In this document: positions 3,184 to 59,149 of the stretch, in pieces
Position numbering within the stretch: the first letter of the stretch is position 1
Layout: each line of letters starts with the position of its first letter
Origin: Acidobacteriota bacterium
GTDB lineage: Bacteria > Acidobacteriota > Blastocatellia > UBA7656
DNA length: 64,000 nucleotides
Reading direction: 5' to 3'
Assembly (NCBI GenBank): GCA_016201275.1
Contig: JACQDB010000043.1
Span: 339 to 64,338, forward strand
The notes under the pieces: model-generated
What the model saw: the letters and a program-made list of their open reading frames with translations, nothing else
Databases searched by the model: none
Told to the model about the DNA's origin: nothing
Program-made: the position numbers and the translations under genes

Positions 3184-3473
3184 GCTTGAAATATCATTCG
3201 TCGCCCACGAAAACCGCAACACCAAAGTGCTTGAGCGCCTCGTTAGCTCCGTGTGCAAATGCTGGTACGGGTGACTCTCTGTTGGCGCTCGTACCGGCAC
3301 ACGCAAATGGAATTAGAGACATTATAGCGGCTGGCAAATGGCCTGAGCCGTGCTGCGGCTGGCTTGAAAACTTGCGGTGCGGTTTACGAAGAGGCGCAGT
3401 TTGTCATACAGTTAGTGACGCCGCAAGATGCAGCGGCGCATCTTCAAAAAGACAAACGCCTTGAGAATAAACT

Positions 3474-4577
3474 ATGACGGAAACCTTGAAGTTGAAAGCG
3501 CCGGAGAGTTGTCGTTGGGATTGTGTCAGTCTGGGTGAGGTGATGCTGCGCTTAGACCCCGGCGCTGGACGCCTTCACACCACGCGCAGTTTTCAGGTCT
3601 GGGAAGGTGGCGGCGAATACAATGTCGCACGCGGCTTGAAACGCTGTTTCGGTTTGCAGACCGCCATCGTCACAGCGCTGGCCGATAATCCCGTAGGGCG
3701 ACTGGTGCAGGATTTGATTTATCAGGGCGGCGTTGACCAAACGCACATTCGTTGGGTCAAGTATGATGGCGTTGGTCGAGCGGTGCGGAACGGTTTGAAT
3801 TTCACCGAACGCGGCTTTGGCGCACGCGCCGCACTGGGTTGTTCCGACCGAGGCCATACGGCGGTCTCGCAACTCCAGCCCGGCGACATTGACTGGCAAA
3901 TGATTTTCGGTAAACAAGGCGCACGCTGGTTTCATACGGGCGGCATCTTTGCTGCGCTTTCCGCGACTGCGCCACAGGTCGCGCAGGAAGCGATGGCGGC
4001 GGCCAAACAACACGGCACTGTGATCTCTTATGATTTGAATTTTCGCCCGTCGTTGTGGCAGAGCATAGGCGGCAAGGCGCAAGCTCAGGCGGTCAACCGC
4101 GAGTTAGCCCAATATGTTGACGTGATGATTGGCAACGAAGAAGACTTCACCGCTGCTTTGGGCTTTGCTGTCGAAGGTCTGGACGAGAATCTCTCCAAAC
4201 TGGAGGTGCGAAATTTTCAACGCATGATGGAAAGCGCCATGCAGCAGTTCCCTAACTTCAAAGTCATAGCCACCACTTTACGCAATGCGCGAACCGCGAG
4301 CCGCAACGATTGGGGCGCAGTCTGTTACACCGATGGCAAGTTGTATCAGGCAACCACGCGAGAGGATTTGGAAATCTTTGACCGCGTTGGCGGCGGCGAT
4401 TCGTTTGCCTCCGGTTTGATTTATGGTTTTCTGATGAACCAGGGAGCGCAGTGGGCTGTTGAATGCGGCGCGGCGCACGGCGCATTGGCGATGACTACAC
4501 CGGGCGATACGACTATGGCAACGCTTTCGGAAGTCGAGCGCGTGATGAAAGGTGGTTCGGCGCGGGTCGCCCGATGA
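3474..4577 (+). CDS. PfkB-family sugar kinase, probably 2-dehydro-3-deoxygluconokinase
   Basis: Ribokinase-like fold motifs incl. C-terminal 'DRVGGGDSFASG' anion-hole; located immediately upstream of KDPG aldolase. Confidence 0.7.
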   Translation: MTETLKLKAPESCRWDCVSLGEVMLRLDPGAGRLHTTRSFQVWEGGGEYNVARGLKRCFGLQTAIVTALADNPVGRLVQDLIYQGGVDQTHIRWVKYDGVGRAVRNGLNFTERGFGARAALGCSDRGHTAVSQLQPGDIDWQMIFGKQGARWFHTGGIFAALSATAPQVAQEAMAAAKQHGTVISYDLNFRPSLWQSIGGKAQAQAVNRELAQYVDVMIGNEEDFTAALGFAVEGLDENLSKLEVRNFQRMMESAMQQFPNFKVIATTLRNARTASRNDWGAVCYTDGKLYQATTREDLEIFDRVGGGDSFASGLIYGFLMNQGAQWAVECGAAHGALAMTTPGDTTMATLSEVERVMKGGSARVAR

Positions 4578-4598
4578 GACGCGAAGGAAGTAGGCCAA

Positions 4599-4620
4599 AG
4601 GCAAACGGCAAACGGCAAAG
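4599..4620. repeat. Tandem heptamer GGCAAAC x3 just after kinase stop
   Basis: ggcaaacggcaaacggcaaag seen directly; same unit class as GGCAAAA x4 at ~23238. Confidence 0.5.
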
Positions 4621-4714
4621 TATGCGTGATGGCGGTGCGGCAATGGCTTCTTGTAGCGCAAAACTTTTGCTTGAACGCCTAGGGAAGGGAAGAAAATATA
4701 CTCCCATAAACCTC

Positions 4715-4767
4715 GTTGAGCAGCGGTCTGTGAGCGCTGGACTGGCGGTCATAGACCGCTGCTCAAC
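4715..4767. terminator. 15-bp perfect inverted repeat gttgagcagcggtct/agaccgctgctcaac (23-nt loop) in kinase-eda spacer; structured RNA/terminator-like
   Basis: Seen directly; no downstream T-run, so may be attenuator/processing element rather than intrinsic terminator. Confidence 0.4.
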
Positions 4768-4941
4768 CGTATGCTATTTCTTGCCGCTTCCCTGAAAATT
4801 GTGGCTGAAAGAACCGGCAAAACGTGAAGGCTTTTTCAAGGCTCTGTACAGGCAACCACCGCAGGGTTGCCCGTATCAGGTTGCATTTAATTTCAGCCAA
4901 CTTCCTTACCGGTTATCACAAAGTTTCGGAAAGAGTGACAC

Positions 4942-5598
4942 ATGAACAAAGCAGAAGTGATGCAAAGGATTAAAGACACTGGTGTGCTGCCTGTGGTGCG
5001 CGCCGCTTCCGCCGATGAAGCCGTGCGCGTCATCGAAGCGATTCAAGAAGGCGGCATAGCGGTTTTGGAAATCACCATGACGGTTCCCGGCGCGGTGCGC
5101 GTCATTGAAGCGGTGGCTGCGCGTTACGGCTCTGAAGCCTTGGTCGGCGCGGGGACGGTGCTGGATGCGGAAACGGCTCGCGCCTGCATCTTGGCGGGAG
5201 CCCAATTCATCGTCAGCCCGGCGCTCAATCTCGACACCATAGCTTTATGTCGGCGCTACGGCGTAGCCATTATGCCCGGCGCTTTGACGCCCACCGAAGT
5301 GTTGCAGGCGTGGACCGCGGGCGCTGATTTTGTCAAAGTTTTTCCGGCAAACGCCTTGGGCGGGGCCAGCTATTTGAAAGCCTTGAAAGCGCCGCTGCCG
5401 CAAATCGAAATGGTTCCGACCGGCGGGGTTTCGTTGACCACTGCCGCCGATTTCATTCACGCCGGAGCCAGCGCTTTAGGCGTCGGCACAGACCTTGTGG
5501 ACGTGCAAGCCTTGCGCCAAGGGCAGGCGCATATCATCACGGAACGCGCCCGACAGTTTCTGCAAATTGTCCGCGCCGCGCGCAGCAACTTGGCCTGA
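4942..5598 (+). CDS. eda: 2-dehydro-3-deoxyphosphogluconate (KDPG)/4-hydroxy-2-oxoglutarate aldolase
   Basis: Full-length match to Eda pattern: 'GIAVLEITMT', 'GAGTVL', 'IMPGALTPTEV', 'FVKVFPA', 'MVPTGGV'. 218 aa. Confidence 0.85.
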   Translation: MNKAEVMQRIKDTGVLPVVRAASADEAVRVIEAIQEGGIAVLEITMTVPGAVRVIEAVAARYGSEALVGAGTVLDAETARACILAGAQFIVSPALNLDTIALCRRYGVAIMPGALTPTEVLQAWTAGADFVKVFPANALGGASYLKALKAPLPQIEMVPTGGVSLTTAADFIHAGASALGVGTDLVDVQALRQGQAHIITERARQFLQIVRAARSNLA

Positions 5599-10919: not shown

Positions 10920-11411
10920 ATGAATGAAACCGATATGAACTATCTGCGTCTGGCGATGACAGTGGCGCGGCGGGCGAAAGCCAAAGGCAATCATCCGTTT
11001 GGTGCAGTGTTGACCGATCAAGACGGCAAGCTTTTATGGGAAGCGGAAAACACTGTCGAGACGGAGCGCGATTGCACAGGCCACGCCGAAACCAACCTGA
11101 TGCGTCTGGCGTCGCAACACTATGACGCCGAGTTTCTATCTGCCTGCACGCTCTACAGCAGCACAGAGCCTTGCGCGATGTGTGCAACGGCGATCATCTG
11201 GGGCGAGGTTGGGCGACTGGTTTATGCTTTGAGCGCCGAGCGCTTTTATACGAAGGTCTTGCCGCCCCATCAACCGTGGTCGTTTCGTCTGTCGTGCCGC
11301 GAAGTCTTTGCCCGATTAACGCGCCCGGTAGAAATCGTCGGGCCGATGCTTGAAGACGAAGGCGAAGAAGTTCACCAGGGCTTCTGGTCATCAGCACCTC
11401 TTCCAGAATAA
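10920..11411 (+). CDS. CMP/dCMP-type zinc deaminase (tRNA-adenosine/guanine deaminase-like)
   Basis: 'HAE' and 'PCAMCA' zinc-binding motifs; AAGGAGAGG SD before ATG 10920. Confidence 0.75.
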   Translation: MNETDMNYLRLAMTVARRAKAKGNHPFGAVLTDQDGKLLWEAENTVETERDCTGHAETNLMRLASQHYDAEFLSACTLYSSTEPCAMCATAIIWGEVGRLVYALSAERFYTKVLPPHQPWSFRLSCREVFARLTRPVEIVGPMLEDEGEEVHQGFWSSAPLPE

Positions 11412-11571
11412 AATGAAGGGCGTTGAGAAACTGTCTTTCTGCCTCCTGCCTTTGGACAAAAGCGTTTTTCAACGGTCGGCTTCGCACGGAATGTTGCGGC
11501 CTGACAGCCGCTTTCCGGCATCGCGGAGGGGGGATTTTTTCTTCCTCCAATTAGAAAATTACCGGGCAATT

Positions 11572-12024
11572 ATGGAACTGAAATTTGAAGAGAAGTATCA
11601 AGGCCAACTCCTCAGTTTGGAGTCAACGATTGTTGCCGTATATCGCAAAAACCAGCAACTGACGGATTACAGCGTGATGGAAGTTCTGGATGGTTTGATA
11701 CGGTTTTATCAGGCGGAAGCGCTCGGTCGTAACGCGCCAGCGCGAAGGCTTGAGCCGCTAGACCAACAGCTATTCGAGCAGGTCGGCGCGATTTGCGAAA
11801 TGCTGTTGGGCAAAGGCGAGTTGCGCGATGAAAAGGGCAAGGTCGTGAGCCTGGCTGACCTGAATCCGGCGCTGAAAACCGAGCTTGCCGGTAGGCTTAA
11901 CTCGACTACGCAGGAAGAACTTCTTGCCTGTCTCAAGCGCTTACGAAAATCGGTGACGCGCTGGAATAAAGCGAATGGCCGGCGCGGCTACCTGGATTTC
12001 GTGAGTAAATATTTTCTGCGGTGA
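11572..12024 (+). CDS. Hypothetical protein (150 aa)
   Basis: ORF only; no recognisable motifs. The 11350..12024 track ORF is trimmed to the first ATG after the upstream gene. Confidence 0.35.
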   Translation: MELKFEEKYQGQLLSLESTIVAVYRKNQQLTDYSVMEVLDGLIRFYQAEALGRNAPARRLEPLDQQLFEQVGAICEMLLGKGELRDEKGKVVSLADLNPALKTELAGRLNSTTQEELLACLKRLRKSVTRWNKANGRRGYLDFVSKYFLR

Positions 12025-12069: not shown

Positions 12070-15000
12070 TCAATCGGCGAAGGCTTCTTCGACTAAGCGG
12101 TGCTGTTCCATTTGATGAATGGCGTGTGAGCCAGTGGCAGTGCTGGCACTGGCGTTGCGGCCTATGTAGCGCAAGCTCTGGTCGGCACTGAGGAATTCGC
12201 GCAGACGCGGCGCGATGAAAAACCACGCGCCTTGATTCTTAGGCTCTTCCTGCACCCAGCGAATATCGGTAGCCGCTTGGTACTTCTGCAACTCGTCGGT
12301 GATGAGGTTTGTGGCAAACGGATAAATTTGCTCCAGGCGCAAAATCGCCGTCTGCTCATTAACGAGTTTTTTGCGTTGCGCTGCCAGATCGTAATAGACC
12401 TTGCCGCTGCACAACAACACGCGCTTGACCTGTGAAGCCTGCGCCGAGCTATCGCTCAACACCGGCTGAAATCCGCCGCTGGTAAATTCCTCAACCGGCG
12501 AAGAGACTTCGGGCAATCGCAATAAACTTTTGGGCGTGATGACCACCAGCGGCTTCGGCGTTTGTTTCACCTGCCGCCGCAAGAGGTGAAAATACTGCGC
12601 CGCTGTCGTGCAATTGACGACCTGCATATTGTCACCGGCACATAGTTGCAGATAGCGCTCAAGGCGTGCGCTGGAATGCTCCGGCCCCTGGCCTTCGTAA
12701 CCGTGCGGCAACAACAGCACGAGGCGCGATTTCTGATTCCACTTCTCTTCGGCAGAGGCGATGAACTGGTCAATGATGACTTGCGCGGCATTGGCGAAAT
12801 CGCCAAACTGCGCTTCCCATAACACCAGATCATCGGGCGCGGCCAGCGTGTAGCCGTAATCAAAGCCCAACACACCGGCTTCAGAAAGCGGGCTGTCGAA
12901 AATATGAAAGCGGGTGTTGTCGGTGGCCAGCAACGACAGCGGTGCCCACTCCTGGCCGGTCTTGGTATCGGTGAATCCGGCGTGGCGTTGACTGAACGTG
13001 CCGCGCACCGAATCCTGTCCGCTTAAACGCACGCTCGTCCCTTCGACCAACAGCGAGCCGAACGCCAACGCTTCGGCCATGCTCCAATCCACCGCGCCGC
13101 CTGCTTCAATCATCTTCGCACGCTTGGTCAACAAGCCTACGACTTTCGGATTCAGATTAAATTCACGCGGCACTTGAGTAATGGTGTGGGCGATGGTTTG
13201 CAAGACCGGCTGTGCGATGCCGGTTTTGACGACCTCTATAGTTTGGGCTTCGGGTTTGGGCGCGGGAATGGCAAGCTCTTTGCCTTGCTGCGCGACGACG
13301 GCCTTAGCGCCAAGCTGGGCGTTTTCATAACGGCGATTGCGTTCGTCCATCAACGAAGCAATTTTCTCGGCACTCATCACGCCCTCTTTGATTAACTTGC
13401 GCGCATACAATTGGCGCACTCCGGGATGCGCTTTGATGCGTTGGTACATAATCGGCTGGGTATAGGTTGGCTCGTCGCCTTCGTTATGCCCGTGTTTGCG
13501 AAAACCGATCACGTCAATCACTACGTCTTTGCGAAACTCCTGGCGGTAATCCAGCGCCAACTGCAAGATGTTGTAAGCCGCTTCGGGGTCGTCGCTGTTG
13601 ACGTGGAAAATCGGCACTTGAATCATCTTGGCAATGTCTGTGCTGTAAGTTGACGAGCGGCCTTCTTCGGGCGGCGTGGTAAAACCCAGTTGATTGTTGG
13701 CGATGAGGTGAATCGTGCCTGCGGTTTTATAGCCCGGCAGTTGCGACATATTCAAGGTCTCCGGCACTACGCCTTCACCGGCAAAGGCCGCATCGCCGTG
13801 AATCAACACCGCAAGTTTGGTGAGCGGGTCTTCGTGGTTTGCCAAATCTTGTTTGGCGCGCACGATGCCTTCTACTACAGGGTCAACGAATTCGAGGTGG
13901 CTCGGATTGGAGGCAACGGCGAGCGCCACTTGATGACCGTCGGCGGTTTCGCGTATGCCGCTGGCACCTTGATGATATTTCACGTCGCCATAATCGTGCG
14001 GAAATTTCGGATGAATCGAGCCTTCAAAAATCGTGAAGATGCGCTCGCAGAATTTGCCTATGACATTGGCGATCACATTCAATCTGCCGCGATGCGACAT
14101 CCCTATGGTTACGTCGTTGACGCCGCGTCGCGCCGCGCTGTCAATCAATTGGTCCAGCACGGCGATGACGGTTTCATTGCCTTCTATGGAAAAGCGTTTT
14201 TGCCCAAGATATTTTGTGCCTAAGAAACGCTCGAACAACTCCGCTGAAATCAGCTTCCATAAAATCTGTTCCTGGGTCGCGGTGGGAACCAATGGGTAGG
14301 CTCGTTCGATGCGCGAACGAATCCACTCTTTCTCTTCGGGGCCGTTGATGTTGCGGTATTCGCTGCCGACTTTGCCGCAATAATACTGGCGCAGCATTTC
14401 GACAATCTCGCGCAAGGTCGCAGTCTCTTTGCCGCCCAGCCCATCGGCGAAAAATCTTCGGTCTAAATCCCAAATCGTCAAGCCGTAAGTTTCGATGTCG
14501 AGTTCTTTGTGATAACGCACTTCCTTCCAGCCCAAAGGGTCTATGTCTGCGAGCAAGTGACCGCGCACACGATAAGCGTTGATGAGTTGCAAGACTCGCG
14601 ATTGTTTGCGCGCCTCCTGCAACTCTTCGCCGATGATGGCCGGGTTTATATCAATCGCCCAGCCATAAGGGCGGAAGGGAATGCCTAAATCATGAAACAG
14701 TTCTTCGTAAAATCCATGTTTGCCGCGCAGCATTTCATCGAGCCGGGCAAGCAACGCGCCGGACTCTGCGCCTTGAATGATGCGGTGGTCATAGGTGCTG
14801 GTGATGGTCATGATTTTGCTGATGCCGAGGCGCGACAAAGAGTCTGGCGACATGGCCTGACATTGCGGCGGATAATCAATCGAGCCGGTGGCGAGGATGA
14901 CGCCTTGTCCGGCCATCAAACGCGGATTCGAGGCGGTGGTGCCGAGAGTGCCGGGATTCGTAAGGCTGACGGTGGTGCCTTGAAAATCGGCGACCTGGAG

Positions 15001-15981
15001 TTTGCCATCGCGTGCGCGTTTCACGATGTCATCATAAGCATCAAGCAACTGCACGAAGTTCAGGCGATTGGCGCTCTTGATATTGGGAACCAGCAAAGTG
15101 CGTGAGCCATCTTTTTTGGTTACGTCAACGGCAACGCCTAGATTGACGCTCGCACGACGCAGCCGATAGGCCGACTCGCCTTCTTCTTCGTAAGCGTCGT
15201 TGAGTTGCGGAAAGCGCTCAAGGGCTTTGCTGATGGCGTGGGCGATGATGTGGGTAAACGAGACTTTGCGATTGCTGGCTTTCAAATAGTGATTGATGAG
15301 GCGGCGATTTTCGTCGAGCAACTTCACGGGGATTTCGCGTTGCGAAGTCGCCGTGGGGACTTGCAGACTGCTCTCCATGTTTTCGGCTATGCGAAGCGCT
15401 GGGCCGCGAATCGGCAGACGCTCGCTGAGTTCGGCGGCGGCGCTTGCGGGTGCGACTTGCGCCGTCGTTGTGGGCGCGGCAACTGATGTGGCTGGTGCGG
15501 CGGTTGGCGGCGCAAGGGTCGCCGTAGTTGGGGACACATTTTGTGCAGGTGCGCTTGCCGTTGGCGCAGCAGGTGCGCTTGCCGTTGGTGCGGCAGGTGC
15601 GGCATTGATTTGCGGCGCGCTTGTTGATGAAGGCGCGGTCGCCTCAGCAGAATTTTTTAGCGCGGTCGCCTCAGCCGTAGTTTGTGGTTTCGAGGCATCG
15701 CCGCTTGTCTTTGGCGAGGCGGCTTCGGCATTGCCCCATTCTCGGATCGGCTCAGTTTGCACAGAGCCATTTGACGGTGCAGGTTGGCTTGCGGCAGCGG
15801 TAGTCGGCTTTGGCCGCTGGTCATTGCCCGCTAGGTCGTGAAAATAGCCTTGCCACTCTTGGCCTATCGAAGCGGGATTTTGGATGAATTGCTGAAACAG
15901 GCTGATGACATAATCGGCATTGACGCCGAATTCATCGGCGATCAATTGTTCAATATCGGTTTGCGTACTCGGTTTGCTCAT
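12070..15981 (-). CDS. sucA: Multifunctional 2-oxoglutarate dehydrogenase E1 with fused E2-like succinyltransferase domain (OdhA/Kgd-type)
   Basis: 1303 aa. N-terminal SucA N-domain, then an A/P/T-rich linker, then an E2 catalytic segment with 'DHRIIQGAESGALLARL'. The E1 part follows with ThDP-binding regions. Same architecture and size as actinobacterial OdhA/Kgd (~1220-1230 aa). Confidence 0.85.
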   Translation of the reverse strand: MSKPSTQTDIEQLIADEFGVNADYVISLFQQFIQNPASIGQEWQGYFHDLAGNDQRPKPTTAAASQPAPSNGSVQTEPIREWGNAEAASPKTSGDASKPQTTAEATALKNSAEATAPSSTSAPQINAAPAAPTASAPAAPTASAPAQNVSPTTATLAPPTAAPATSVAAPTTTAQVAPASAAAELSERLPIRGPALRIAENMESSLQVPTATSQREIPVKLLDENRRLINHYLKASNRKVSFTHIIAHAISKALERFPQLNDAYEEEGESAYRLRRASVNLGVAVDVTKKDGSRTLLVPNIKSANRLNFVQLLDAYDDIVKRARDGKLQVADFQGTTVSLTNPGTLGTTASNPRLMAGQGVILATGSIDYPPQCQAMSPDSLSRLGISKIMTITSTYDHRIIQGAESGALLARLDEMLRGKHGFYEELFHDLGIPFRPYGWAIDINPAIIGEELQEARKQSRVLQLINAYRVRGHLLADIDPLGWKEVRYHKELDIETYGLTIWDLDRRFFADGLGGKETATLREIVEMLRQYYCGKVGSEYRNINGPEEKEWIRSRIERAYPLVPTATQEQILWKLISAELFERFLGTKYLGQKRFSIEGNETVIAVLDQLIDSAARRGVNDVTIGMSHRGRLNVIANVIGKFCERIFTIFEGSIHPKFPHDYGDVKYHQGASGIRETADGHQVALAVASNPSHLEFVDPVVEGIVRAKQDLANHEDPLTKLAVLIHGDAAFAGEGVVPETLNMSQLPGYKTAGTIHLIANNQLGFTTPPEEGRSSTYSTDIAKMIQVPIFHVNSDDPEAAYNILQLALDYRQEFRKDVVIDVIGFRKHGHNEGDEPTYTQPIMYQRIKAHPGVRQLYARKLIKEGVMSAEKIASLMDERNRRYENAQLGAKAVVAQQGKELAIPAPKPEAQTIEVVKTGIAQPVLQTIAHTITQVPREFNLNPKVVGLLTKRAKMIEAGGAVDWSMAEALAFGSLLVEGTSVRLSGQDSVRGTFSQRHAGFTDTKTGQEWAPLSLLATDNTRFHIFDSPLSEAGVLGFDYGYTLAAPDDLVLWEAQFGDFANAAQVIIDQFIASAEEKWNQKSRLVLLLPHGYEGQGPEHSSARLERYLQLCAGDNMQVVNCTTAAQYFHLLRRQVKQTPKPLVVITPKSLLRLPEVSSPVEEFTSGGFQPVLSDSSAQASQVKRVLLCSGKVYYDLAAQRKKLVNEQTAILRLEQIYPFATNLITDELQKYQAATDIRWVQEEPKNQGAWFFIAPRLREFLSADQSLRYIGRNASASTATGSHAIHQMEQHRLVEEAFAD

Positions 15982-23468: not shown

Positions 23469-24595
23469 CGGTACATCTCCAAAGCCTCGCTTGCGCCGAA
23501 GGGGCGCGGATTGAAAGTGCCTGTCCATTGTCTGGCGGCGTCCTCAGCAAGCATCTTCAAGTCGGCAGATTTGATGCCAACCTGGCTTAGGCGTTGCGGC
23601 AGTTGGCCGACTTCAATCAATTGCTCCAGTCTGGCGGCCAGCGCTTCACCGGCCTGCTTTGCAGCAGCGATATTCGCCACCTTCAACAGTTCGCCATAGC
23701 GTTCAGCCACCAACGCGCTGTTCCATCTGACCACAGACGGCAGCATCACGGCTATGGCTTCGCCGTGCGCCGTGCCATAATGCGCCGTCAACGGATTGGC
23801 GCAAGCGTGCGTTGCTCCCAGCATGGAATTTTCAATCGCCACCCCCGCGAAGTACGCTCCGAGTTGCATCGCGCCACGCCCTGCCAAGTTGTGGGGATCG
23901 GCCAGCACACGTTCATAATTGGCTTCCAACAAACGCCAGGCTTCTCGCGCATACATCTCCGACAAAGCGTTGCGCCGCGTCGTCACATAACTTTCGACGG
24001 CGTGCGAAATGGCATCAAAGCCCGCTGTTGCCGTCACTGTCACCGGTTGCGAAACCGTAAGTATGGGGTCAAGCAGCGCCACTCGAAAAGCCGCTTTCGG
24101 ATCACCGCAAGCCATCTTCTCATGGGTATCGGCATCGGCTATGAGCGCGTAGCATTGCGCTTCGCTGCCGGTTCCAGCAGTCGTCGGAATAGCTATCATC
24201 GGCAGCAGCGCTTGCGCGGCTTTCCCATAGCCCTTGTAATCGCGTATCGCGCCGCCGTTGGTCAATAAAAAATTGATGCCCTTGGCGCAATCCATAGAAC
24301 TGCCGCCGCCCAAACCGATCAGCGAATCAATAGCTAGAGACGAAGCAAAATCGCGTCCCGCTTCCACCATGCGGGTGTTCGGGTTCGCCTCGAAATCATG
24401 AAAGACAAACGCTTCAACGCCGACCTCTTTGAGCAGTCGTATCGCTTCGTCAACATAACCGCTATCCATCAACCCCTGGTCAGAAACCAACAAGGTACGG
24501 CGAAAGTTCAACGCACCTGCTGCTGCGCCAAGCTCTTTGAATTTCCCTGCGCCGTAATGGATTTGCGTGTGAAGTTGAAAATCGAATGGTTGCAT
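23456..24595 (-). CDS. Iron-containing (group III) alcohol dehydrogenase
   Basis: 'GLGGGSSMDCAKG' and His-rich metal site 'HA..H' motifs; 379 aa. Confidence 0.85.
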   Translation of the reverse strand: MQPFDFQLHTQIHYGAGKFKELGAAAGALNFRRTLLVSDQGLMDSGYVDEAIRLLKEVGVEAFVFHDFEANPNTRMVEAGRDFASSLAIDSLIGLGGGSSMDCAKGINFLLTNGGAIRDYKGYGKAAQALLPMIAIPTTAGTGSEAQCYALIADADTHEKMACGDPKAAFRVALLDPILTVSQPVTVTATAGFDAISHAVESYVTTRRNALSEMYAREAWRLLEANYERVLADPHNLAGRGAMQLGAYFAGVAIENSMLGATHACANPLTAHYGTAHGEAIAVMLPSVVRWNSALVAERYGELLKVANIAAAKQAGEALAARLEQLIEVGQLPQRLSQVGIKSADLKMLAEDAARQWTGTFNPRPFGASEALEMYRCAY

Positions 24596-57499: not shown

Positions 57500-59149
57500 T
57501 CAAACCTTCGCGCCTTTCGAGCGGTTCGCCAGATGCAAAGGCATGAGCTTGCCGCGCCCTGTCCATACCGGTTTTTGGCGTTTCACGCGCAGCGCCTTCG
57601 CCTGTTTCCAGATGGCGCTTGCCGAATCTGCGCCGACGCTGCTCTTCTCCATCGCCGCCAACACGGCGTCAATGACTGCCGCTTCATCGGCAATTTCAAG
57701 GCGCGGATTGACCAACAGAGAAAGCCGCGTGAAGCCTTGTTCATCCTCTTCTTCCATCAACTGATAATCCAGCGCACTGCCGCCGAATCGCGTGGGTAAA
57801 ACTTCTTCCAGTATGTGAACCATCTCGCTGCCAACCAAAGTTACGCCTTCGCCGGTCAGCTTGCTGAAACTGCGAATATCGCGCAGGTGTTCGCTAAAAC
57901 CAAGTTCTTCAAGAGGGCATCCGCAGGCGCGGTTTTCCACAATACCATAATCATCTATCTCTACATTGAGCATCAATTTCGGAGCCGTCAATAAAAGCGC
58001 GGTGACGTTGAACGCTTCAACAATAATTTCCGAATCCTGTATCGCTCTGGGTTTTTGAATAACCGCGAAAGCGTCTGTGAGCAAATGCAGGTCGTTGCAA
58101 GCGGTCGGCTTGGCGCAGCCCATGCCTATGCGTCCGGCTTCGGCTAAACCGTAAGTCGGAAAGTAGCGCGCCCCTGTGCTTTCTATGCCTTTGACTTTTG
58201 CCGCAGTCGGCGGTTCTCCGGCAATCATAAACGTCGCGCCGGTCAAATCCAATCCGGCTTCCTGCGCCGCTACGCAAACCCGCAAGGCGCGACTGACCGG
58301 CGATAAAATCAGGCAAGCGCCATGCGTCTGCAAAGTTTCGCTTGCCCAACGCGCCACCACGATGGCGTCTTCTATGCCAACCATTTCCGGCCACGGCAAA
58401 GGCTTGCCAAACACGCGCCCCAAGACCACTGTGGTGTAAGTTGCCAGATGGTATTTATATTTGAGCGAGGCTTTGAGGTTTGCCGTAACTATTGGCGAAA
58501 ACCAGCGCTGCGGATACCTGCCCAGATGCGCCGCCCTGAGCAGATTGTTGATGCCGCTGCCATCAGGCAGTATGCCGCGCCACAAAGCCGTTGGCACGTC
58601 CAAAACTCCATGCGCCTGCCGCGCCAACATCAAGTGGGTGGACTGCGCCGCCAGATGGTCGAGGTCGGTTTCGACTCGGGTTTGCGCTCCCGTCGTGCCG
58701 CCGCTTGCAGTGATATAGGAACGGCTTAAAAAAGGATTATCGAAACTGTGTGGATGGAGCGCAATCATCTGTCCGCCGCGCACCAAGGGCTTGCGCCCCT
58801 TGAACTCCTCGAAGCTGATATAAACACCGGCATCGCGCAAATGATGCAAGGTCTTTTCCAGACCTTTGGCGCGCAGCAGATTTTTTATATCGCCGATTTC
58901 GCAGTCCGCCAGTTTCAACAACGGCAAGTAAGGGCTTGGGGCATAATTGAAAATGCCGCGCTCAAGCAGGCGTAAAAAGTTGGCTTCGCGTTCGGCCAAG
59001 CGTCGTTCAATCACGGCGCGAGCGTCGTCAAGCGTAAGCGGATGGCGCAAGAACCCCCGCAATCCCCACGCAAAGCGCGAGAACATTTTCATCTCACCAA
59101 TAAAACTCATAAATGCTTTTGACAGGAATAATCGTATCGTCTCAATCAT
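57500..59149 (-). CDS. Adenylate-forming enzyme of the phenylacetate-CoA ligase / F390 synthetase / CapK-like family
   Basis: 'YITASGGTTGAQTRV' (cf. PaaK SSGTTGKPT P-loop), 549 aa; context of capsule-type genes. Confidence 0.55.
   Translation of the reverse strand: MIETIRLFLSKAFMSFIGEMKMFSRFAWGLRGFLRHPLTLDDARAVIERRLAEREANFLRLLERGIFNYAPSPYLPLLKLADCEIGDIKNLLRAKGLEKTLHHLRDAGVYISFEEFKGRKPLVRGGQMIALHPHSFDNPFLSRSYITASGGTTGAQTRVETDLDHLAAQSTHLMLARQAHGVLDVPTALWRGILPDGSGINNLLRAAHLGRYPQRWFSPIVTANLKASLKYKYHLATYTTVVLGRVFGKPLPWPEMVGIEDAIVVARWASETLQTHGACLILSPVSRALRVCVAAQEAGLDLTGATFMIAGEPPTAAKVKGIESTGARYFPTYGLAEAGRIGMGCAKPTACNDLHLLTDAFAVIQKPRAIQDSEIIVEAFNVTALLLTAPKLMLNVEIDDYGIVENRACGCPLEELGFSEHLRDIRSFSKLTGEGVTLVGSEMVHILEEVLPTRFGGSALDYQLMEEEDEQGFTRLSLLVNPRLEIADEAAVIDAVLAAMEKSSVGADSASAIWKQAKALRVKRQKPVWTGRGKLMPLHLANRSKGAKV

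What the first reader, a model, noticed from the sequence alone, without database searches (positions are those of the whole stretch)
12070..15981. Actinobacterial-style fused E2-E1 2-oxoglutarate dehydrogenase (OdhA/Kgd architecture) in a Gram-negative, Acidobacteria-like context
The 1303-aa protein has the order E1 N-terminal helix domain, then an Ala/Pro-rich linker (with a 27-bp tandem DNA duplication encoding APAAPTASAPAAPTASAPA), then an E2 catalytic domain (DHRIIQGAESGALLARL), then a ThDP E1. No separate sucB/lpdA follows. In Corynebacterium/Mycobacterium this architecture is coupled to FHA-protein (OdhI/GarA) regulation. Its presence here raises the question of whether a lipoyl-donor E2 is encoded elsewhere and whether similar regulation exists.
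Basis: partly seen in the sequence, partly recalled or inferred. Interest (0 to 1): 0.55.

Follow-up and report, generated by a model that had tools for sequence, protein, structure and literature searches.

The report
Fused E2–E1 oxoglutarate dehydrogenase in Acidobacteria

Summary
Window 12070-15981 (-) is one 1303-aa ORF. Its domain order is N-terminal E1o helix, Ala/Pro/Thr/Ser linker, E2 acyltransferase catalytic domain, then a complete ThDP E1o. There is no lipoyl or E3-binding domain. It scores 1689 bits on NCBIfam's Kgd/OdhA equivalog model (cutoff 878) and aligns end to end with the solved M. smegmatis KGD and C. glutamicum OdhA. All E2o and E1o catalytic residues are present, as are the OdhA-specific E2o helix insertion and the "PCI-like" Phe. 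One correction: the tandem DNA repeat has a 24-bp period, not 27. The host is Acidobacteriota, judged from a syntenic labelled MAG and from outer-membrane genes in the window. The gene stands alone here and in four relatives' loci; the 64 kb hold no lipoyl-E2, lpd or FHA gene. The exact protein is already in NCBI (MBI3651057.1) with this name, and all 120 listed relatives (61-100% identity) share the architecture. Fused forms also occur in Gemmatimonadota and Dormibacterota MAGs, so "unique to Actinobacteria" is overstated. The acidobacterial clade is separate from the sampled Actinobacteria. It lacks their conserved Arg781 interdomain contact, and the OdhI/GarA docking residues differ, so regulation may differ. 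Verdict: new member of a known kind, modest interest.

The parts
12070..15981 (-). Complete CDS of the fused E2o-E1o 2-oxoglutarate dehydrogenase (OdhA/Kgd type), 1303 aa; identical to NCBI MBI3651057.1
   Evidence: ORF; NF008907 1689 bits; 100% identical P0001
15829..15930 (-). N-terminal helical domain (2-oxogl_dehyd_N, res 18-51), the presumed docking element for partner E2/E3
   Evidence: Pfam PF16078, E 5.7e-8; aligns to the CgOdhA N-terminus (domain 1); well conserved among close relatives. The partner-binding role is inferred from PMC10415282 and Bruch et al.
15427..15819 (-). Low-complexity Ala/Pro/Thr/Ser linker (res 55-185), hypervariable in length among relatives
   Evidence: Composition and alignment; the pre-E2 segment is 83-230 aa in 116 relatives
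15545..15601 (-). 24-bp tandem repeat x2.4 encoding APAAPTAS repeats (res 128-146), private to this sequence
   Evidence: TRF; absent from P0002-P0006
14725..15426 (-). E2o succinyltransferase catalytic domain (res 186-419), with S213, T341, S351, Y397, H399, Q403 and the OdhA-type helix insertion (res 379-385)
   Evidence: Pfam PF00198, E 3.6e-47; residue mapping; invariant in 120/120 relatives
14608..14724 (-). E2o C-terminal amphipathic helix with the PCI-like Phe424, plus the short conserved E2-E1 junction (FYEELFHDLGIPFRPYGWAIDINP)
   Evidence: Alignment; F424 equals Cg F340; 119/120 Phe
12073..14607 (-). ThDP-dependent E1o (res 459-1303): helical subdomain, E1_dh, Transket_pyr, OxoGdeHyase_C; ThDP motif GDAAFAGEG...NNQLGFTT; catalytic His630, His670, His832
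   Evidence: Pfam; TIGR00239 1079 bits; E. coli SucA 2JGD 791 bits; residues
13312..13374 (-). Equivalent of helix alphaE (res 870-890), the OdhI/GarA docking and activation-state helix in Actinobacteria; here E880, R883, E886, N887
   Evidence: Mapping; 119/120 conserved within the clade, but this conservation is not above background

Best explanation
[quoted passage not shown] The C-terminal ThDP E1o domain decarboxylates 2-oxoglutarate and reductively succinylates a lipoyl-lysine. The protein has no lipoyl domain, so another protein must supply that lipoyl-lysine, most likely the lipoyl-bearing E2 of the pyruvate or another 2-oxoacid dehydrogenase complex encoded elsewhere in the genome. 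The internal E2o domain then transfers the succinyl group to CoA, and a separately encoded lipoamide dehydrogenase re-oxidises the lipoyl group. By homology it should assemble as a trimer (E2o) of dimers (E1o), that is a hexamer, and its PCI-like Phe should block formation of a higher-order E2 core. Shown here: the architecture, family membership, all catalytic residues, the OdhA-specific structural insertions, the solitary gene context and the non-actinobacterial host. Inferred: lipoyl supply in trans, the hexameric assembly, and the idea that regulation differs from Actinobacteria. The last point rests on the conserved Arg781-E2o contact being replaced by Glu and on altered OdhI/GarA contact residues.
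For: The five-domain order with no lipoyl or PSBD domain comes. NF008907 scores 1689 bits against a cutoff of 878, covering residues 10-1302. The protein gives a contiguous alignment to MsKGD 8P5R (1121 bits) and CgOdhA 8P5T (1100 bits). The CgOdhA functional residues listed in PMC10415282 map to S213, T341, S351, Y397, H399, Q403, F424, R508, H630, H670 and H832. All of these are conserved, and each is invariant or nearly so in 120 relatives. The OdhA-specific E2o helix insertion and a 5-residue insertion are present, whereas E. coli SucB and AceF lack them. The ThDP motif is intact. The gene is solitary and syntenic in relatives on contigs of 330 kb to 7.9 Mb. The N-terminal 2-oxogl_dehyd_N helix is retained. 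The acidobacterial clade has bootstrap 100, and the short-junction 'group A' that also contains Ms and Cg has bootstrap 80.
Against: No lipoyl-bearing E2, lpd or FHA gene could be examined for this genome, because only 64 kb is available, so the in-trans partner is pure inference. There are no biochemical data for any non-actinobacterial member. The actinobacterial interdomain contact Arg781 (9/9 in the sampled Actinomycetota-clade proteins) is Glu866 here (E in 109/120 and D in 9/120 of the clade), and its partner segment R151/R153 is Ala/Gly. Allosteric behaviour may therefore differ from the characterised enzymes. The acetyl-CoA site could not be checked.
Confidence: 0.82

Rival explanations
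1. Assembly or frameshift artefact: a sucB-sucA pair was wrongly merged into one ORF.
For: In principle MAG contigs can carry indels. One unrelated locus, L018 (a 'Rickettsia' MAG), does show a SucA-SucB read-through ORF.
Against: The domain order is N-helix, E2 catalytic domain, E1, with no lipoyl or PSBD domain, which cannot come from merging classical genes. All 120 listed relatives from NCBI, JGI, ENA and Logan assemblies hold the E2 catalytic and E1o domains in one protein, 118 of them with the N-terminal Pfam hit as well. The junction sequence is conserved with the crystallised MsKGD and CgOdhA.
Confidence: 0.01
2. It is a stand-alone 2-oxoglutarate decarboxylase or 2-hydroxy-3-oxoadipate synthase (the activities originally ascribed to mycobacterial Kgd). 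It would make succinic semialdehyde or a carboligation product without any lipoyl partner, with the E2-like domain acting only as a structural or regulatory element.
For: No E2 or E3 gene lies nearby in the window or in four relatives' loci. NCBI's family name itself lists decarboxylase activity. My recollection is that such side activities were reported for Mtb Rv1248c; I did not check this here.
Against: The E2o catalytic dyad His399/Gln403, the CoA-binding Thr341 and the succinyl-carboxylate ligands Ser213/Tyr397 are invariant in 120/120 relatives. That indicates purifying selection on succinyl transfer. In C. glutamicum the homologue is a true ODH that uses AceF lipoyl domains (PMC10415282), and there too odhA is reportedly not clustered with aceF or lpd (from my own knowledge).
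Confidence: 0.1
3. The gene is a recent horizontal acquisition from an actinobacterium rather than a resident acidobacterial gene.
For: The literature treats the architecture as essentially Actinobacteria-specific. The best PDB hits are actinobacterial.
Against: GC content of the gene region (0.55-0.56) matches its surroundings. The gene and its neighbours are syntenic in relatives at 78-81% protein identity. The window sequence sits in a bootstrap-100 clade with Blastocatellia and over 100 metagenome clusters, and that clade is not nested in the sampled actinobacterial clade (bootstrap 80). Identity to Ms and Cg is only ~45-49% in every segment.
Confidence: 0.05

Closest known systems
Corynebacterium glutamicum OdhA (PDB 8P5S-8P5X) and Mycobacterium smegmatis KGD (8P5R, 2XT6)
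   Same: Same domain order and no lipoyl or PSBD domain. About 45-49% identity across the E2o, junction and E1o-core segments (C-terminal ~300 residues scored separately by HMMER). E2o residues Ser/Thr/Ser/Tyr/His/Gln are identical. The E2o helix insertion (Cg 296-302) is the same length. The PCI-like Phe (Cg F340 = F424), Arg421 (= R508), the ThDP motif and the catalytic His residues are all shared. The short E2-E1 junction motif is conserved.
   Different: The host is a diderm Acidobacteriota bacterium. The N-terminal linker is longer (pre-E2 segment 207 aa). Arg781, the conserved actinobacterial E1o-E2o contact, is Glu866, and its partner R151/R153 is Ala/Asn. The OdhI/GarA contact positions differ: D795 to E880, D/G798 to R883, Q/S488 to W575, K484 to E571. 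The C-terminal 314 aa score slightly higher against E. coli SucA than against Cg or Ms. No FHA regulator or partner E2 has been identified.
Classical SucA + SucB (E. coli 2JGD type)
   Same: The E1o part (res 459-1300) is ~45-52% identical to E. coli SucA with the same active-site histidines (H260/H298 = H630/H670). The N-terminal 2-oxogl_dehyd_N helix is also present.
   Different: An E2 catalytic domain is inserted between the N-terminal helix and E1o. There is no separate adjacent sucB or lpd. The E2 domain has DHRxxQG instead of DHRxxDG, two insertions, and lacks lipoyl and PSBD domains.
Full lipoyl-PSBD-E2-E1 fusions (described for Thermoleophilia by Bruch et al.; here P0129, P0131, P0132, P0138)
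   Same: The same OdhA-type E2 catalytic domain (VPTATS, insertions, DHRxxQG) is fused upstream of E1o.
   Different: Those proteins start with a lipoyl domain and so are self-sufficient. The window protein starts with the E1o N-terminal helix and has no lipoyl domain.
Fused proteins of Gemmatimonadota and Dormibacterota MAGs (L010-L012, L014, L016, L017)
   Same: The E2 catalytic domain is of the same subtype, and E1o follows in one polypeptide.
   Different: They form a separate clade (bootstrap 99-100). Their E2-E1 junction is long and Ala/Pro-rich instead of the short conserved one. Arg421 is not conserved. Two members (L012, P0128) lack the helix insertion. In L016 an lpd gene follows directly.

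Membership tests
OdhA/Kgd two-in-one E2o-E1o 2-oxoglutarate dehydrogenase (NCBIfam NF008907) | Domain order 2-oxogl_dehyd_N, 2-oxoacid_dh catalytic domain, E1_dh, Transket_pyr, OxoGdeHyase_C in one polypeptide, without lipoyl or E3-binding domains | tested here: met
   Pfam scan
OdhA/Kgd two-in-one E2o-E1o 2-oxoglutarate dehydrogenase (NCBIfam NF008907) | Score above the curated equivalog cutoff over the full length | tested here: met
   1689.4 bits against a cutoff of 878, residues 10-1302 on model positions 6-1240 of 1241
OdhA/Kgd two-in-one E2o-E1o 2-oxoglutarate dehydrogenase (NCBIfam NF008907) | E2o catalytic His/Gln dyad (Cg H316/Q320), CoA Thr258, and succinyl-carboxylate ligands Ser129/Tyr314 | tested here: met
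   H399, Q403, T341, S213, Y397 (plus S351); 120/120 in relatives
OdhA/Kgd two-in-one E2o-E1o 2-oxoglutarate dehydrogenase (NCBIfam NF008907) | OdhA-specific short helix insertion in the E2o domain (Cg 296-302) replacing the beta-hairpin of canonical E2 | tested here: met
   A 6-residue insertion relative to EcSucB and EcAceF at res 379-385 (PDSLSRL), same length as in Cg and Ms. The salt-bridge residues R298/E301 are not conserved.
OdhA/Kgd two-in-one E2o-E1o 2-oxoglutarate dehydrogenase (NCBIfam NF008907) | Conserved Phe of the PCI-like motif at the E2o C-terminal helix (Cg F340) | tested here: met
   F424; 119/120 relatives; 33/33 across all four fused groups sampled
OdhA/Kgd two-in-one E2o-E1o 2-oxoglutarate dehydrogenase (NCBIfam NF008907) | Intact E1o active site (ThDP GDG...NN motif; Cg His543/583/747) | tested here: met
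OdhA/Kgd two-in-one E2o-E1o 2-oxoglutarate dehydrogenase (NCBIfam NF008907) | Homohexameric (trimer of dimers) assembly | not testable with these tools
   Inferred only from ~48% identity to 8P5R and 8P5T and from conserved interface motifs
OdhA/Kgd two-in-one E2o-E1o 2-oxoglutarate dehydrogenase (NCBIfam NF008907) | Uses lipoyl domains supplied in trans by E2p (hybrid PDH/ODH), with E2p carrying the 3-residue PCI | not testable with these tools
   There is no lipoyl-E2 in the window or within 10 kb in the relatives examined.
Actinobacterial OdhA regulation module (OdhI/GarA FHA inhibition, Arg781 brake, acetyl-CoA activation) | Arg781 on the loop before helix alphaE contacting the E2o segment 151-153 (conserved in actinobacterial homologues) | tested here: not met
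   Glu866 in the window. The position is E in 109/120 and D in 9/120 of the clade, against R in 9/9 of the sampled Actinomycetota clade. R151/R153 become A235/N237.
Actinobacterial OdhA regulation module (OdhI/GarA FHA inhibition, Arg781 brake, acetyl-CoA activation) | OdhI/GarA docking residues (Cg K484, Q488, A791, D795, D798, E801, S802) and a cognate small FHA protein | tested here: inconclusive
   The acidic residues are kept (E880, E886) but the others differ (E571, W575, R883, N887). These positions also vary among Actinobacteria and in classical SucA. Their conservation within the clade is not above background (P=0.10). There is no FHA gene in the window or loci flanks, although odhI is reportedly not linked to odhA in Actinobacteria either (my own knowledge).
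Actinobacterial OdhA regulation module (OdhI/GarA FHA inhibition, Arg781 brake, acetyl-CoA activation) | Allosteric acetyl-CoA pocket residues | not tested
   The residue list is not given in the accessible text of PMC10415282.
Classical tripartite ODH (separate SucA, SucB, Lpd) | E1o of ~930 aa without an E2 domain, with an adjacent sucB carrying lipoyl and PSBD domains | tested here: not met
Full LB-PSBD-E2-E1 fusion (Thermoleophilia type) | N-terminal lipoyl and E3-binding domains | tested here: not met
   The N-terminus is 2-oxogl_dehyd_N plus a low-complexity linker.

The most novel reading that the evidence does not exclude
Two-in-one E2o-E1o dehydrogenases are not an actinobacterial peculiarity. 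They would be the standard 2-oxoglutarate dehydrogenase of a large Acidobacteriota lineage, with sister forms in Gemmatimonadota and Dormibacterota. In that lineage the enzyme would work without the actinobacterial control layer (the Arg781 interdomain brake and OdhI/GarA-PknG), and possibly together with a canonical, non-reduced E2p core. That would break the proposed obligatory link between OdhA, the PCI-truncated E2p core and FHA regulation. It would also give a natural comparison for asking why the fusion exists.
Probability: 0.35. Interest if true: 0.55.

Novelty: new member of a known kind. Interest (0 to 1): 0.3.

Why it matters
The OdhA/Kgd architecture is presented in the structural literature as a hallmark of Actinobacteria. 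That literature links it to a hybrid PDH/ODH supercomplex, a reduced trimeric E2p core and FHA/PknG control, and suggests these Actinobacteria-specific interactions as drug targets in M. tuberculosis. This window shows the same catalytic machine as a resident gene in a diderm soil phylum, with the catalytic and assembly motifs intact but the actinobacterial regulatory contacts changed. That makes one question testable: which of the "actinobacterial" accessories (PCI in E2p, OdhI, acetyl-CoA activation) are intrinsic to the fusion, and which are lineage-specific add-ons. For genome annotation it is also a reminder that a missing sucB in Acidobacteriota MAGs does not imply an incomplete TCA cycle. 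The finding is not a new kind of system, and the databases already name it correctly.

Tried and rejected
(1) Frameshift or merge artefact: rejected.

(2) Partner genes: I looked in the window by Pfam on nearly all called ORFs of 90 aa or more. I also ran phmmer with E. coli SucB, AceF, Lpd and a GarA sequence (written from memory, then validated against the PDB) over all ORFs of the window and 20 loci. Nothing turned up except lpd next to the Dormibacterota gene.

(3) Conserved operon partners: neighbourhoods of relatives on long contigs show none.

(4) Single origin of all fused proteins, tested on the E1o domain alone: the NJ backbone is unresolved and monophyly is not recovered (group A bootstrap 35). 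The E2 domain synapomorphies and the full-length tree (group A bootstrap 80) are more informative. Only NJ with Kimura distances was available, so deep branching should not be over-read.

(5) Clade-specific binding site: I asked whether the OdhI/GarA docking surface is unusually conserved within the acidobacterial clade. It is 5/7 invariant against a 40% background, P=0.10, which is not significant.

(6) Taxonomy of unlabelled representatives from cluster-member records: only accessions and product names were returned.

(7) Literature searches for OdhA or Kgd in Acidobacteria or other non-actinobacterial phyla: nothing beyond Bruch et al.'s "few isolated cases".

(8) Linking an E2p or FHA protein to the same genome as the window: I found no workable route with the available tools.

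(9) Acetyl-CoA pocket: the residue list is not in the accessible text.

One Pfam call failed on a wrong reading frame.

Full report
OBSERVATION.
The window has a single uninterrupted ORF at 12070..15981 on the minus strand (1303 aa, ATG start). Pfam places five domains in this order: 2-oxogl_dehyd_N (res 18-51), 2-oxoacid_dh acyltransferase catalytic domain (186-419, E 3.6e-47), E1_dh (584-893), Transket_pyr (964-1155) and OxoGdeHyase_C (1161-1301). There is no lipoyl (PF00364) or E3-binding domain. Residues 55-186 form an Ala/Pro/Thr/Ser-rich linker. It is an insertion private to this sequence relative to its closest relatives, and it lies in a linker whose length ranges from 83 to 230 aa across 116 relatives. 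It looks like ordinary slippage in low-complexity sequence.

FAMILY ASSIGNMENT.
- NCBIfam's equivalog model NF008907 (multifunctional oxoglutarate decarboxylase / E1o / succinyltransferase, i.e. Kgd/OdhA) scores 1689 bits against a curated cutoff of 878 and covers residues 10-1302.
- Against the PDB, the best matches are full-length M. smegmatis KGD (8P5R, 1121 bits) and C. glutamicum OdhA (8P5T, 1100 bits). Both align contiguously from about residue 120 to 1301. E. coli SucA (2JGD) matches only residues 459-1300.
- I took the functionally defined residues from Yang et al. 2023 (PMC10415282) and mapped them through the alignments.
- E2o residues: catalytic dyad His316/Gln320 = H399/Q403; CoA-binding Thr258 = T341; Ser268 = S351; succinyl-carboxylate ligands Ser129/Tyr314 = S213/Y397.
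- Assembly residues: the PCI-like Phe340 = F424; Arg421 = R508.
- E1o residues: His543/583/747 = H630/H670/H832. The ThDP GDG...NN motif is intact.
- In an alignment of the 120 listed relatives these positions are invariant in 120/120 (F424 in 119/120).
- Relative to E. coli SucB and AceF, the E2 domain carries the OdhA-type features: a VPTATS motif, a 5-residue insertion, the 6-residue insertion that forms the OdhA-specific helix (Cg 296-302; here res 379-385), and DHRxxQG instead of DHRxxDG. It also has the short conserved E2-E1 junction (FYEELFHDLGIPFRPYGWAID, compared with Ms FFDEIFRELGIPYEPVRWRTD).

HOST AND CONTEXT.
- The 64 kb encode TonB-dependent receptors with CarboxypepD_reg domains, an OEP-family protein, BamB-like propellers and a complex I operon. 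This is a diderm, Acidobacteria-like inventory.
- The closest taxonomically labelled relative is an Acidobacteriota MAG contig, L004 (78% identity). It shares the upstream SnoaL-like and TonB-receptor genes.
- A Blastocatellia MAG (57% identity) falls in the same bootstrap-100 clade.
- GC content of the gene matches its surroundings.
- The gene is solitary. On one side lie a convergent hypothetical ORF and a deaminase; on the other, a divergent SnoaL-like gene.
- No lipoyl-E2, lpd or FHA gene occurs anywhere in the window (phmmer, with a GarA query validated).
- The same holds within 10 kb of the homologues on a 330 kb syntenic contig, on 2.9 Mb and 7.9 Mb contigs and in a more distant lineage.

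HOW COMMON IS IT?
- The exact protein is already public as NCBI MBI3651057.1, from a MAG contig of 66.7 kb, and PGAP named it as the multifunctional Kgd/OdhA enzyme.
- The 120 best clusters in the 5.8-billion-protein collection (61-100% identity) all carry the fused E2-E1 architecture, with all five Pfam domains precomputed for 118 of them.
- A peptide-pattern scan of GTDB species representatives, which is not a census, found fused homologues in Acidobacteriota (Blastocatellia, Thermoanaerobaculaceae), Actinomycetota (Acidimicrobiia and others), Gemmatimonadota and Dormibacterota.
- In the 50%-identity representative library, roughly 20 of the top 150 representatives span both E2 and E1o. Four of them begin with a lipoyl domain, which is the full LB-E2-E1 fusion that Bruch et al. 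described for Thermoleophilia.
- Bruch et al. [quoted passage not shown]
- I found no paper in the library describing the enzyme in Acidobacteria.

PHYLOGENY (NJ, Kimura distances, bootstrapped; no maximum-likelihood program was at hand).
- On E1o alone the backbone is unresolved and the fused proteins are not recovered as one clade. E1o is ~45-52% identical to everything, E. coli included, and the C-terminal third even scores slightly higher against E. coli SucA than against Cg or Ms.
- In a full-length tree of fused proteins only, the window clade has bootstrap 100, the clade holding all the labelled actinobacterial sequences has 80, and the Gemmatimonadota/Dormibacterota clade has 99.
- "Group A" has bootstrap 80. 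It comprises the window clade, the actinobacterial clade, the Thermoanaerobaculaceae sequence and several unlabelled representatives, all with the short conserved junction.
- The branching between the window clade and Actinobacteria is unresolved at 21-41%.
- The shared E2-domain insertions argue for a single origin of this E2 subtype. Nothing suggests a recent transfer from Actinobacteria.

WHAT DIFFERS.
- Arg781 contacts the E2o segment 151-153 and restrains the resting-to-active transition. It is conserved in the actinobacterial group (9/9 in my sample).
- In the window this position is Glu866. In the clade it is E in 109/120 and D in 9/120. R151/R153 are A235/N237 in the window, and mostly Ala/Gly in the clade.
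- At the OdhI/GarA docking surface the acidic residues persist (D795 to E880; E801 to E886), but K484 to E571, Q/S488 to W575 (120/120), D/G798 to R883 and S/R802 to N887 all differ.
- These docking positions also vary among Actinobacteria and in classical SucA, and their conservation within the clade is not above background (5/7 against 40%, P=0.10). FHA regulation can therefore be neither inferred nor excluded.
- The acetyl-CoA pocket could not be evaluated.

MECHANISM.
- Shown: an intact two-in-one E2o-E1o enzyme of the OdhA/Kgd family.
- Inferred from the characterised homologues: E1o decarboxylates 2-oxoglutarate and succinylates a lipoyl-lysine supplied in trans by another complex's E2. 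The internal E2o domain makes succinyl-CoA. Lpd re-oxidises the lipoyl group. The assembly is a trimer-of-dimers hexamer, and the PCI-like Phe424 blocks a higher-order core.
- The retained N-terminal helix fits a need to dock on partner proteins.
- The rival reading, a stand-alone decarboxylase or carboligase, is disfavoured by the invariant E2o active site but cannot be excluded without the genome or an assay.

VERDICT.
It is a new, uncharacterised, non-actinobacterial member of a known and already correctly annotated family. A specialist would find two points mildly interesting. First, the architecture is clearly not confined to Actinobacteria. Second, the acidobacterial clade keeps the catalytic and assembly motifs while lacking the actinobacterial interdomain regulatory contact.

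Noticed in passing
L018:3714-7781 (contig JAYPPA010000003.1, 'Rickettsia sp.' MAG): A 1356-aa stop-to-stop ORF matches E. coli SucA (780 bits) and complete SucB (435 bits) in one frame. This is an E1-then-E2 read-through, the opposite order to OdhA. It is either a real SucA-SucB fusion or a lost stop codon or assembly error.
   Followed up: partly
L016:174-5011 (Candidatus Dormibacterota MAG): In this phylum the fused E2-E1 gene is followed directly by a lipoamide dehydrogenase homologue (EcLpd 265 bits at 3299-5011). The acidobacterial genes, by contrast, are solitary.
   Followed up: partly
P0129, P0131, P0132, P0138 (representative library): These are fused proteins of 1288-1443 aa that begin with a lipoyl domain (TDKVDVE motif), i.e. 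self-sufficient lipoyl-E2-E1 fusions. P0129 and P0132 cluster with the Dormibacterota and Gemmatimonadota sequences, which suggests this variant extends beyond the Thermoleophilia where Bruch et al. reported it.
   Followed up: partly
L002 against L001: A MAG labelled 'uncultured Clostridia bacterium' carries a protein almost identical to that of a Blastocatellia MAG (adjacent tips, near-zero branch lengths). This is probably a binning or taxonomy error in one of the records.
   Followed up: no
window:34499-47106 (-): A complex I gene cluster with NuoC, D, H, I, J, K, L, M, N-type subunits. There is no nuoE/F/G between nuoD and nuoH, and no recognisable nuoA/B upstream. The NuoC ORF as called has a 190-aa N-terminal stretch with no Pfam hit, which may simply be an over-extended start.
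   Followed up: partly
window:28707-30652 (+): A type II restriction-modification pair: a C-5 cytosine DNA methylase followed by a BsuBI/PstI-family restriction endonuclease. It sits in the lowest-GC stretch of the window (~0.50), so it may be a mobile insertion.
   Followed up: no
window:22182-28524 (-): Three BamB/PQQ-like beta-propeller proteins (448, 523 and 759 aa) lie close together. The first has an 82%-identical counterpart in the syntenic contig L023.
   Followed up: no
window:53616-57120 (-): A TctC-TctA-TctB tripartite tricarboxylate transporter operon. It could import TCA-cycle-related acids, but there is no evident link to the odhA-like gene.
   Followed up: no
window:31487-33139 (+), 57500-59149 (-), 11350-12024 (+), 23594-24268 (+): Several sizeable ORFs (224-550 aa) have no significant Pfam match. 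One is the ORF convergent with the odhA-like gene; its called start overlaps the deaminase gene by ~60 bp.
   Followed up: no
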